Of a stretch of DNA of 64,000 nucleotides, positions 7,611 to 43,310 are shown piece by piece. Source of the DNA: Octopus sinensis (Eukaryota); assembly GCF_006345805.1 (NCBI RefSeq), contig NC_043008.1, positions 13,144,001 through 13,208,000 of the forward strand, written 5' to 3'. The position numbers were made by a program, and so were the translations under genes. Below the pieces are notes generated by a model, which had not been told where the DNA came from, ran no database searches, and saw nothing but the letters and a program-made list of their open reading frames with translations. Positions within the stretch are counted from its first letter, which is position 1. Every line of letters starts with the position of its first letter.

Positions 7611-8050
7611 CTCTACCCGCTCAGTCGAAGTTGACTCTCGGTCACTCGTTGGATCAGTGTCCTCCAGTCAGTTCTATCCTGGGCTATTTCTTTCAGATTG
7701 GCTATGTCCATTCCGGTATCACTCTTGATGGTGTCAAGCCAGCGGGCTCTTGGTCGGCCTCTTTCTCTCTTGCCACTGACCATTTCGAGCATGATGTCCT
7801 TCTCCATGGATTTTCTCCACATAATATGACCGAAATATACCAATCTATGCTTGGTGATCCTAGCTTCTAGCGACATTTTCGGCCTTATCTGCTTACGAAC
7901 TTCTCCATTGGTGAGCCTCGCTGTCCATGGAATCCGTAAAAGTCTTCTCCAACACCAAAGCTCGAATACATTAATTCTCTTCTGGTCAGCTTTCTTTATG
8001 TCCAGGTCTCGCATCCATATGTTGCTATTGGGAAGACAATTGCATTCATC
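7611..8050 (-). mobile_element. 5'-truncated RTE-clade LINE (RT C-terminus and 3' end)
   Basis: ORF 7613..8098: KRINVFELWCWRRLLRIPWTARLTN...RLVYFGHIMWR..MEKDIML..VSGKRERGRPRARWLDTIK, the hallmark RTE/BovB-type C-terminus. Confidence 0.92.
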
Positions 8051-8213
8051 AATCTGCGATGATAGTATATAATGTAAAACCTTTTCTTTGCTGCTCAACC
8101 GTTTTTACTGATAGAAATACTCTTCTTATTGAAGTTTACCTTGTATCGAAACCACAACGCAATGTTTCCGTTTAAAGCTTTTCCCTCGGCCTCTATGGTT
8201 CTGTTTAAACTCA

Positions 8214-11973: not shown

Positions 11974-12090
11974 GAAGAGCGTTGGCTCGAAACGTAAAAG
12001 ACTCTCTCACTTCCCGAGGGTTAAACTAATACATCTGTTTGCTGTTTAAACACCCGTCTTCGGTTTTTGATTTTTTGGAAATTTTAACTA
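11974..12090 (+). mobile_element. PLE-type terminal repeat fragment starting at a truncated hammerhead core
   Basis: GAAGAGCgttgGCTCGAAACGTAaaagac..., ends at a (TA)n tract; homologous to 31596-31656. Confidence 0.6.
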
Positions 12091-12334
12091 CATATATATA
12101 TATATATATAATATATATATATATATATTTAAGTAGGTGAATGAATTATCCTATGTTTATCGTCAGCATGGAAAATTCGTTTAACCGAAACCTGGGTAGC
12201 AAATTCACGTCAGAAACACGGTTGAAGCGACCTGTCAAGGGTAGAAACTCCGGGTTCATGTGCAGAAATTTGTGTGTTGTATATGAATAAATGAAAGAAT
12301 GGAGTCGAACGAAGATATTAACAAAATTCTTTTA

Positions 12335-12416
12335 CTCTCGACACATGTTTCGAAGACAGCATGATTTCATGCCAAAGGAATAAAGGGTGCATTATGCAAT
12401 CTTCTCATCAGGAAAG
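12335..12416 (-). ncRNA. Type I hammerhead ribozyme (minus-strand copy)
   Basis: Reverse complement reads CTTTC-CTGATGA-GAAGATTGCAT...ATGCTGTCTTC-GAAA-CATGT-GTC-GAGAG. Confidence 0.8.
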
Positions 12417-12813
12417 AAAAGGAGCCTCTCTCGATACCAAGACAAAAATTCCGATGATTACCTTCATGGTAAACAAAGCGATAATGAGTGTTTTTTTTAA
12501 AAAGCCCTTAAAAGAATTGACGTCAAAAATAGATAGTAGGAAGAGAAGGGATAAAGTAATAATAAGTAGGGAAGGGAACAGTATGTTTGCTGTATGCATG
12601 GAAATGTGCGGGTGTGCGCTTGTGTTAATGAGTGCGTGTGTTTGTGTGTGTGAATAACTTGTTCCCTACCTATTATTCATTTATCCCTTCTCTTCCTACT
12701 ATCTAACTTTGACGTCTGTCTCTCTCTCATACACAAAATCACACACACAGACACAAATGCAGTTGTAGGTAATCATCGACATTTTTGTCTTGTTGTCGAG
12801 AGAGGCTCCCTTT

Positions 12814-12895
12814 CTTTCCTGATGAGAAGATTGCATAATGCACCCTGTATTCCTTTGGAATGAAAACATGCTGTCTTCGAAACATGTGTCGAGAG
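12814..12895 (+). ncRNA. Type I hammerhead ribozyme
   Basis: Stem I CTTTC/GAGAG (one G-U); core CTGATGA 12819-12825; stem II GAAGATTGCAT/ATGCTGTCTTC closed by G-C; GAAA 12879-12882; short stem III containing palindrome ACATGT; GUC triplet 12888-12890. Confidence 0.82.
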
Positions 12896-12959
12896 TAAAG
12901 GAATTTTGTTAACATCTTCGTTCGACTCCATTCTTTCATTTATTCATATATATATATAT

Positions 12960-13037
<78 letters not shown>

Positions 13038-13056
13038 GTTATATATATATATATAC

Positions 13057-13102
<46 letters not shown>

Positions 13103-13239
13103 GTATATATATATAAGTACATATATATATATATACATATATATATAAATATGTTCAAATACATATACATACATATACATATATATATAGATACATAAAT
13201 ATACATATATATATATATATATATACATATATATACGTT

Positions 13240-13271
<32 letters not shown>

Positions 13272-13296
13272 GTGTGTGTGTACATATATATATATA

Positions 13297-13342
<46 letters not shown>

Positions 13343-41280: not shown

Positions 41281-41545
41281 ATGGGGCACGTGTTATTCTG
41301 TCTCTAAATTATATGTTAATGTTTTGGTGTAGACACTGATGAAAAATCCGCCTAGCAGATTATTTTATTTGCTAATTAGAGTTTGAAACATATGTAAGGT
41401 AAAAGATTTTATTCTTCATTCCCTTCGAAATTGCTCTTAAATGTGGTTTTGGTCGTTTTGACTGCTCCTTCTAGCGTGTAACGCTGCCAGTTGAGGGTCG
41501 CCTTTTTGTGTTTAAATGTACACTTATTTTATATGGGGTATAGGC
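41281..41545 (+). mobile_element. (TA)n-inserted element with degenerate hammerhead (41331-41400)
   Basis: CTGATGA 41336-41342; inner hairpin tagca...tgcta; GAAA-CATAT-GTA 41385-41396 (palindromic ACATATGT); stem I poorly paired. Confidence 0.6.
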
Positions 41546-41844: not shown

Positions 41845-42960
41845 TAATAATAATAATAATAATTGTGTACAGTGCTCAGGTGCACTACAACTCATCTAAA
41901 GTGTATATATAATCAGGTGTAGTTTCGGCGGATTTCGGAAAGCATGAGGGCCTTAAAAGATGCAGTGTCATGGCAGTCAACAACTGACGCAGGCAGTTTA
42001 TTCCATGCTTCAGCAACTCTGAGCGTGAAAAAATGTTTCCGAAAGTCATGGGGGCTGTATTGTTTTCTGACTTGTAGGCATGTCCACGTGTGTTAGACAC
42101 ATGGAGATCAAAAAGGTGTTCAGTGTTGTTGTTGGTGAGGTGGTTGATAACTTTGTGGGTGTTTACCAAGTCCGTCGCCAAACGCCGGAGCTTCAGTGAA
42201 TCCATGCCAGGGAAACAAGGCGCTCAGAATATGGTAGGTGTCTGATGGAGGGTATGCGTTTGGTTGCACGTCTCTGGACAGATTCCAGGAGGTCAATGTT
42301 CTGTGCAAGATAGGGGTTCCAAACTGATGATGCGAATTCCAAGTGTGGTCGTACCATAGCTGTATACAGTTTTAAATAGATGGCTGGAGAGCGGCTAACA
42401 AAAGACCTGCTGAGTGATGCCAAGACACCCTCGGCCTTCCTGACAATCTTAGAGATATGCTTTGACCAACGCAAATCACTGCTGACAGTGATGCCTAGGT
42501 CACGCTCGCAAGAGGATTTCTTGATATCAGTGTTGTGGAGGGAGTATGTGAACGCAGGGTTTTTTCTCCCAAAATGCATGGTGGTACACTTGTCCACAGC
42601 CAGTTTCAGTTGCCAGTCTGTGATCCATTGCTGCATTGTGTCTAGGTCTGATTGCAGGAAGAGTTGTAGACATCAGGATCTGTCCTCTTGATTTCAAGGT
42701 ACAGCTTGATGTCGTCTGCATATTTCAATACTGTGGCATTCTTTAAATTGGCATCTATGTCGTTAATGTATGCCACAAACAAGAGGGGACCAAGGACAGA
42801 TCCCTGTGGTACACCCGATGACATCTCATATGGTGTAGAGTGCTGTCCTAGAACTGTGACTACCTCCTTTCGGCTGAGGATGAAGGATTTCAACCAGTTA
42901 AAAAGGTCATCCCCCACACCCATTGCAGAGAGGTTCACCATAAGCCTTTTGTGTGGCACA
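41845..42960 (-). mobile_element. 5'-truncated CR1-clade LINE (RT domain, frameshifted) with (TTA)n tail
   Basis: ORFs 42642..42980 (SGVPQGSVLGPLLFVAYINDI, YADDIK), 42193..42636 (LYTAMVRPHLEFASSVWNPY) and 41885..42205 (NTRGH). Confidence 0.95.
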
Positions 42961-43310
42961 GTAGTTCCCGAAACACACACATTGCTTTATTAGTAATGGC
43001 ATCTAAGTAATGTGTTGAAAAACCTTCTGGATAGCAAATTACGAAGACTCGTGGGAGTCGAACCCATATTTACTGGAGACATGAAAGGTCTTCTATCTTG
43101 GTGACAATTTATAGATTTCTGCGTTACTACACTTGCAAAAACAATTATGCATACATTTGCATGTATGTGTGTGTGTATGTATGTATGTATATATGTGTCT
43201 GTACATACGCATCTATATGTATATGTGTGTACGTGCGTTTGTGAGTGCATAATTTAGTACGTAACAACAGTATAGTTCATAAAGTTTGCGGTATAAAAAA
43301 TTTGATATTT

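What the first reader, a model, noticed from the sequence alone, without database searches (positions are those of the whole stretch)
12131..12949. Best candidate: two intact, opposed type I hammerheads with an extended stem II
Seen: both arms keep the full core, a G-C closing pair, an 11-position stem II with a 31 nt loop that can hold an inner hairpin (attcc-ttt-ggaat in the plus copy), GUC triplets and stem I. Arm differences within the motif fall in the loop. Stem III is only 3 bp with a 2 nt loop but is palindromic (ACATGT). Inference: cleavage probably needs dimerisation; the long stem II departs from the minimal PLE hammerhead.
Basis: partly seen in the sequence, partly recalled or inferred. 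Interest (0 to 1): 0.75.

Follow-up and report, generated by a model that had tools for sequence, protein, structure and literature searches.

The report
Long-armed hammerheads in Penelope-like retrotransposon ends
These are the two clipped, back-to-back ends of a common jumping gene, each carrying a hammerhead self-cutting RNA motif with an unusually long arm that the element's subfamilies have kept, and which likely cuts only when two RNA copies pair up; cutting itself is untested.

Summary
Both hammerhead motifs are real (cleavage sites C12890 on +, C12340 on -). They are the 3' ends of two 5'-truncated copies of a repeated Penelope-like retrotransposon (1,448 first-look candidates), joined head-to-head in a (TA)n site. 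Opposed pairs are the family's commonest neighbour arrangement (26 of 40) and an integration footprint, not a working pair: a read-through RNA buries both in a long hairpin. Both being intact is what young neutral copies give. The long stem II (52-59 nt) is family-wide and covaries across subfamilies down to about 68% protein identity, so it is a selected feature. It exceeds the published minimal descriptor (at most 24 nt), but a spikemoss element has a similar span. The protein is Hydra-like but lacks that clade's linker zinc motif. This scan has noted long-stem-II and twin-armed hammerheads before on other DNA. Verdict: new variant of a known kind; cleavage untested.

The parts
12089..12128 (.). 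Left (TA)n microsatellite, insertion target
   Evidence: sequence
12129..12659 (-). Long arm: 5'-truncated 3' end of the Penelope-like element (3' UTR, hammerhead, tail)
   Evidence: collinear with ORF-bearing copies at about 91%
12129..12280 (-). About 155-nt tail, present on this arm only; in tandem copies it lies between the hammerhead and the ORF start
   Evidence: no significant fold on its own (z +1.4)
12330..12420 (-). Type I hammerhead, minus copy (core from 12411, C17 12340); inner hairpin damaged by private changes
12657..12767 (+). Proximal piece of the short arm; the sequence immediately upstream of where the long arm stops (7-nt overlap), inverted
12764..12945 (+). Distal piece of the short arm, after a jump of about 170 nt; ends at the family's short terminus about 54 nt after C17
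12809..12901 (+). Type I hammerhead, plus copy (stem I 12809-12818 with 12891-12901)
12826..12878 (+). Extended stem II, 53 nt: 11-position basal helix, internal loop, apical hairpin
   Evidence: covariation; fold z -2.2
12882..12889 (+). Stem III 8-mer, self-complementary in the dimer register with a central U.G/G.U; predicted cleavage after 12890
12946..13330 (.). Right (TA)n microsatellite, insertion target
   Evidence: sequence

Best explanation
The locus is one insertion of a Penelope-like retrotransposon, made of two 5'-truncated 3' ends joined head-to-head in a (TA)n repeat, and each end carries the family's long-stem-II hammerhead, which is predicted to cut after C17 mainly as a two-RNA double hammerhead. 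Shown: the parent element (single ORF, RT motifs, C-terminal GIY-YIG region), the two fixed 3' termini, the family-wide stem II length, covariation in stems I and II, and the self-complementary stem III. Inferred: the element's protein nicks both target strands, each nick primes reverse transcription at one of two RNA start sites (about 54 and 211 nt after C17), and the two cDNAs are joined at their truncated ends. Inferred: in the parent RNA two hammerheads (tandem pLTRs or two molecules) pair through the stem III 8-mer to complete the core, probably slowly and with protein help. Inferred: the copies here are passive relics, silenced as ribozymes in any RNA that reads through both arms. Rough odds: identity and architecture 0.95; ribozyme can cleave in some form 0.8; dimer needed for efficient cleavage 0.65.
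For: Repeat family: 45 matches, 40 scored of 1,448 candidates. ORF upstream in longer copies, with DKT, YRDD, YIG and CxxC..E..N..CxH; 113 homologues at 29-43% identity. 28 of 34 close copies run into (TA)n at one of two distances from C17. Neighbour pairs: 26 divergent, 13 tandem, 1 convergent of 40; 60 of 94 clusters single. Termini: 10 of 22 divergent clusters resolved, all 10 one long plus one short; second subfamily 4 of 6 (rows). Stem II span 52-59 nt in all 115 of 122 copies that parsed. On 34 hand-picked copies of the 122: 90% of cells paired, 71 double-sided changes against 28 shuffled, 5 of 11 basal stem II pairs with double changes, slid controls 37-49% paired; RNAalifold independently returns only stem II pairs. 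Stem III: 106 of 113 parsed copies are ACAUAUGU (50), ACAUGUGU (44) or ACACGUGU (12); the central pair can form only between two molecules. Active dimer of the plus copy is 6.8 kcal/mol below two free monomers. Read-through RNA: hammerhead fold costs about 125 kcal/mol. Literature: inverted 5'-truncated copy and one-sided tail are typical of PLEs; PLE protein cleaves and extends both strands from two RNA start sites.
Against: No cleavage data; only contigs, no raw RNA reads, were available. Published Hydra-type hammerheads have similarly short stems III that are not all self-complementary, so monomer activity at high Mg2+ is possible. In the energy model the plus copy's best dimer is the out-of-register, inactive one (2.2 kcal/mol below the active dimer), and in 7 of 30 copies evaluated the active dimer is not favoured over two monomers. 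Covariation counts sequences, not independent events, and the copies are related (caveat); RNAalifold did not recover stems I and III. One locus (L098) appears to have two long ends, and L016 looks like a fold-back. Pfam gave no RT match and only a sub-threshold GIY-YIG match (E 0.03). Copies were chosen by similarity, so variation rates are biased low.
Confidence: 0.8

Rival explanations
1. The hammerhead cleaves well as a monomer: the long stem II and bulged stem I supply a tertiary contact that makes up for the weak stem III.
For: Monomer active fold is only 2.0 kcal/mol above the MFE for the plus copy; stem I always has a bulge or internal loop after 5-6 bp; loop-to-stem I contacts activate other hammerheads (PMC3088659, passages).
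Against: P(A15.1-U16.1) in the monomer is 0.01-0.02; the centre of stem III stays self-complementary, which a monomer would not need; a stem I loop-apex pseudoknot that I tested was no better than slid controls (52.9% paired against 64.7% at +2).
Confidence: 0.2
2. The motif is kept mainly as a structural element (protein-binding rod and RNA dimerisation signal for two-template reverse transcription); cleavage is slow or secondary.
For: Every full-length genomic copy was reverse-transcribed across the scissile bond; only 1 of 32 listed 5' ends in the close family falls at C17. In an anole PLE the hammerhead was dispensable for insertion and cut only with protein (PMC11167929). In 2 of 4 loci where I saw an internal jump (window, L071), the second arm resumes within 7 nt of where the first stopped.
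Against: The catalytic core is kept across all subfamilies (100 of 122 copies intact). One template with strand displacement, or two pLTRs on one RNA, explains the jumps as well. The jump pattern is post hoc (rough chance 0.07 and 0.008).
Confidence: 0.2
3. The opposed pair is a functional unit at this locus (for example a host-used sense/antisense or hairpin-RNA switch).
For: Both cores intact; a hairpin of about 290 bp would be a dsRNA source if transcribed.
Against: Same arrangement at 26 of 40 neighbour pairs; core varies as much as flanks; 31 of 36 close copies have intact cores; the minus copy has private damage.
Confidence: 0.04
4. The inverted repeat arose by snap-back copying of one cDNA or by later DNA rearrangement, not by two primings.
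For: L016 and L012 have arms that stop at the same base.
Against: In the window the plus arm holds 12657-12767, which the minus arm's range lacks as a collinear piece, and the minus arm holds the tail that the plus arm lacks; in L002, L038 and L041 neither arm contains the other.
Confidence: 0.05

Closest known systems
Hydra clade of C-terminal EN+ Penelope-like elements (Craig et al. 2021, PMC8557442; passages and supplement part 2 plus passages read)
   Same: DKT motif, RW motif, CxxC and CxH around E and N in the endonuclease, (TA)n targeting, 3' type I hammerhead with 3-4 bp stem III and 1-3 nt loop; Penelope-13_HM has an inverted 5'-truncated copy with an opposed hammerhead.
   Different: Stem II 52-59 nt against at most 24 nt in the 26 Hydra rows of File S2 (found with a bounded descriptor); RWL for RWK; no CxCx5C linker (0 of 4 ORFs, 88 of 113 homologues have it), replaced by a long Asn/Ser-rich linker; repeat unit 3.2-3.7 kb; a different family from Hydra-1_Obim by eye.
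Minimal and palindromic-helix-III PLE hammerheads (Cervera and de la Pena 2014, PMC4209133; parts 1-2 of 4 and supplement passages read)
   Same: Type I, G10.1-C11.1, palindromic stem III, proposed dimer activity; dual motifs 100-700 bp apart on opposite strands already reported.
   Different: No extra base after A9; stem III of 8 nt; stem II span twice the descriptor limit.
PLE-X1_sMoe hammerhead of spikemoss (Craig 2021 File S2)
   Same: Long stem II (9 bp plus 35-nt loop), flagged there as deviating from the canonical form.
   Different: Plant, endonuclease-free, rDNA-targeting lineage; no covariation or test seen in what I read.
Poseidon element of the green anole (Frangieh et al. 2024, PMC11167929; parts 1-2 of 4 read)
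   Same: Two RT start sites define a tail; both target strands cut and extended; AT-rich target.
   Different: Tail here about 155 nt against 30-40 nt; hammerhead lies 3' of the ORF, not over the start codon.
Animal non-LTR retrozymes (PMC7229834 passages; bioRxiv 10.64898/2026.07.22.740005 part 1 of 5)
   Same: Type I hammerhead in a mobile repeat, dimer cleavage for weak stem III.
   Different: This family has a protein-coding parent and no short non-coding tandem unit in the loci examined.

Membership tests
Type I hammerhead ribozyme | Core CUGANGA ... GAAA ... UH with A15.1-U16.1 and G10.1-C11.1 | tested here: met
Type I hammerhead ribozyme | Three helices, stem I open, supported by covariation | tested here: met
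   (stems I and II covary; three stem III pairs never vary)
Type I hammerhead ribozyme | Self-cleavage after H17 | not testable with these tools
   only contigs available
Type I hammerhead ribozyme | Match to an Rfam hammerhead model | tested here: not met
   a model limit for a 53-nt stem II is the likely reason (inference)
Minimal PLE hammerhead (Cervera 2014 descriptor) | Stem II 3-7 bp, loop 3-10 nt, GAAANNUH | tested here: not met
EN+ Penelope-like element | Single ORF with RT and C-terminal GIY-YIG | tested here: met
   ORFs to about 900 aa in relatives, YRDD and YIG motifs; Pfam GIY-YIG only sub-threshold, no RT hit
EN+ Penelope-like element | Partial tandems (pLTR), inverted 5'-truncated copy, tail on one end | tested here: met
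EN+ Penelope-like element | Hammerhead in the pLTR | tested here: met
EN+ Penelope-like element | RT groups with telomerase-like PLE RTs in a tree | not tested
   no reference PLE proteins were available as tool sequences
Hydra clade | DKT motif | tested here: met
   4 of 4 ORFs
Hydra clade | N-terminal RWK motif | tested here: inconclusive
   RWL in 3 of 3 ORFs that reach that far
Hydra clade | CxxC and CxH beside E and N, no CCHH in the endonuclease | tested here: met
   CCHH absence judged by eye on the alignment
Hydra clade | CxCx5C linker | tested here: not met
   0 of 4 ORFs against 88 of 113 homologues; so filed as Hydra-like, not as a member
Hydra clade | (TA)n insertion | tested here: met
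   28 of 34 ends
Non-LTR retrozyme | Short non-coding tandem units, no ORF | tested here: not met
   parent has an ORF; most tandem spacings 3.2-4.2 kb

The most novel reading that the evidence does not exclude
In this lineage the hammerhead doubles as an RNA pairing device: the self-complementary stem III joins two element RNAs, and the roughly 24-bp stem II rod is a conserved protein handle, so that a dimeric RT-endonuclease primes both target strands on two tethered templates. The head-to-head arms, one long and one short end, and the second cDNA resuming exactly where the first stopped are its genomic footprint, a Penelope counterpart of retroviral RNA dimer initiation.
Probability: 0.15. 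Interest if true: 0.7.

Novelty: new variant of a known kind. Interest (0 to 1): 0.35.

Why it matters
Hammerheads in Penelope-like elements, their dimer cleavage and the inverted insertion shape are known. The particular locus is an ordinary decaying copy.

Tried and rejected
Rfam: no hammerhead match; the miRNA-family matches are below threshold and reflect the inner inverted repeat. A subfamily sharing the minus arm's two stem I changes: not found, best other copy 94%; the changes are private or nearly so, so the apparent compensation may be chance. Pseudoknot between the stem I loop and the stem II apex: not above slid controls. Structure in the tail: none significant. 5' ends clustering at the cleavage site: 1 of 32. 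Expression: no RNA holder on record; runs guessed to be RNA hold the motif as contigs, which shows neither level nor cleavage. Intron reading of the 170-nt jump: ends are not GT-AG on either strand (read). The long/short tally printed used thresholds that were too narrow; I counted from its rows. Lunse et al. 2017 was not held; I saw only its title in a reference list, and it or its supplements may describe long-stem-II variants. Literature searches found no paper on this family or its stem II, but subscription journals, Repbase and Dfam were not searchable, and one supplement file of PMC4209133 could not be searched.

Full report
Observation. The window holds two hammerhead motifs on opposite strands, as described: plus core at 12819 with C17 at 12890, minus core at 12411 with C17 at 12340. 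Each has the full core, G10.1-C11.1, a 53-nt stem II, a 3-bp stem III with a 2-nt loop and a bulged 10-bp stem I. The arms differ at 11 of 182 positions; three differences lie in the 31-nt loop and two form a C-G/U-A swap in distal stem I. The minus copy is more damaged (P of the closing pair 0.40 against 0.95). Rfam does not detect either.

What it is. The arm is a dispersed repeat: 1,448 first-look candidates, 40 scored, 45 matches at 92-100%. Longer copies continue upstream into an ORF with DKT, YRDD, a YIG motif and CxxC..E..N..CxH. Related subfamilies down to about 68% identity have open frames of about 900 aa. 113 database homologues were found. These motifs match the Hydra clade of Penelope-like elements as described in PMC8557442 (passages), and the N-terminus resembles Hydra-1_Obim by eye without being the same family. 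The CxCx5C linker is absent from 4 of 4 ORFs but present in 88 of 113 homologues, so I call the family Hydra-like and do not file it as a member. The host is a 2.7-Gb, microsatellite-rich animal genome; I did not establish the species. Contigs from runs labelled as three other organisms also carry the motif.

Why two opposed copies. The minus arm (12659 to 12129) and plus arm (12657 to 12945) are 5'-truncated 3' ends joined at their 5' ends, each running into (TA)n. Among 134 distinct hammerhead hits in 94 clusters, 60 are single, and of 40 neighbour pairs 26 are divergent as here, 13 tandem and 1 convergent (many loci were only 3 kb wide). 28 of 34 close copies end about 54 or about 211 nt after C17. 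All 10 of 22 divergent clusters whose two ends could be resolved have one long and one short end; a second subfamily gives 4 of 6, with one apparent long-long case and one unresolved (rows). An inverted truncated copy and a one-sided tail are the published PLE pattern, opposed minimal hammerheads 100-700 bp apart were already reported, and Penelope-13_HM has the same arrangement. In vitro, a PLE protein cuts and extends both target strands from two RNA start sites that delimit the tail. An RNA reading through both arms folds into a hairpin in which forming the hammerhead costs about 125 kcal/mol, so the two motifs cannot act as partners. In 36 close copies, core positions differ from the majority at 1.8% and flanks at 2.0%, and 31 of 36 cores are intact: both being intact here needs no selection.

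The long stem II is a selected family feature. Its span is 52-59 nt in all 115 of 122 full-length copies that parsed, and 59 nt in most copies of an older subfamily. On 34 of the 122 copies, picked by hand to cover subfamilies, 90% of cells pair, double-sided changes number 71 against 28 in shuffles, and 5 of 11 basal pairs change on both sides; slid controls pair at 37-49%. RNAalifold finds 9 pairs, all in stem II, 3 with double changes. These counts are not independent events. In intact relatives the 'loop' continues as an irregular helix to an apical hairpin. The published minimal descriptor allows at most 24 nt, and the 26 Hydra rows of Craig's File S2 reach 24 nt, but PLE-X1_sMoe has 9 bp plus a 35-nt loop, so the length has a precedent. 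A tertiary pseudoknot to stem I was tested and not supported. What the rod does is not shown; a protein-binding handle is my best guess.

Dimer. Stem III is ACAUAUGU (50), ACAUGUGU (44) or ACACGUGU (12) in 106 of 113 parsed copies; 9 of 122 did not parse and 2 of the 113 were misparsed deletion copies. The central two bases are adjacent, so they can pair only between two molecules, and they move among U-A, U.G and C-G. This is comparative support for the double-hammerhead form known for weak stems III. Against: in 7 of 30 copies evaluated the active dimer is not below two monomers, and no cleavage data exist. Published PLE hammerheads cut weakly even as dimers, and one needs its protein.

A mechanistic footprint. 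In parent coordinates the minus arm stops at 1307, while the plus arm runs 1674 to 1484, jumps, and resumes at 1313. L071 shows the same: arm 1 stops at 2133 and arm 2 resumes at 2126. Two other jumps (L037, L065) do not. This suggests that the second cDNA finished on the RNA used by the first, either because two templates were held together or by displacement on one template. It is 2 of 4 cases and post hoc.

Verdict. A real, structurally unusual but precedented hammerhead variant in an ordinary copy of a Hydra-like Penelope element. Earlier notes of this scan report long-stem-II and twin-armed hammerheads in this and other genomes; none matched this sequence. They are unchecked notes and were not counted as support. 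New variant of a known kind; interest 0.35.

Noticed in passing
window 41323-41409 (+): A third, degenerate hammerhead of another repeat family (42-nt stem II with an 8-bp inner hairpin, the same self-complementary ACAUAUGU stem III, stem I decayed) between (TA)n tracts; weak match to my model (E 0.008); 1,352 first-look candidates, best relatives 79-86%.
   Followed up: partly
L112, L115, L121, L122 ORFs: The family lacks the CxCx5C linker motif (a 174-193 aa Asn/Ser-rich linker region against about 65 aa in most homologues) yet inserts into (TA)n, which argues against that motif being needed for microsatellite targeting.
   Followed up: partly
L075:694 (+): A different, short-stem-II type I hammerhead (6-bp stem I) about 500 nt upstream of a family copy, probably another PLE or retrozyme.
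   Followed up: no
L068:6399: One tandem copy begins within 1-2 nt of the cleavage site, as expected of a template cut by the ribozyme; a single case among 32 listed 5' ends.
   Followed up: partly
window 12519-12573 and 12657-12715: The inner inverted repeat comes from a duplicated 3' UTR segment present in one sub-lineage of the element (L026, L034, L035, L036); it explains the sub-threshold miRNA-family matches.
   Followed up: yes
window 41888-42986 (-) and 7616-8104 (-): Fragments that look like LINE reverse-transcriptase ORFs of other retrotransposons (recalled motif resemblance).
   Followed up: no
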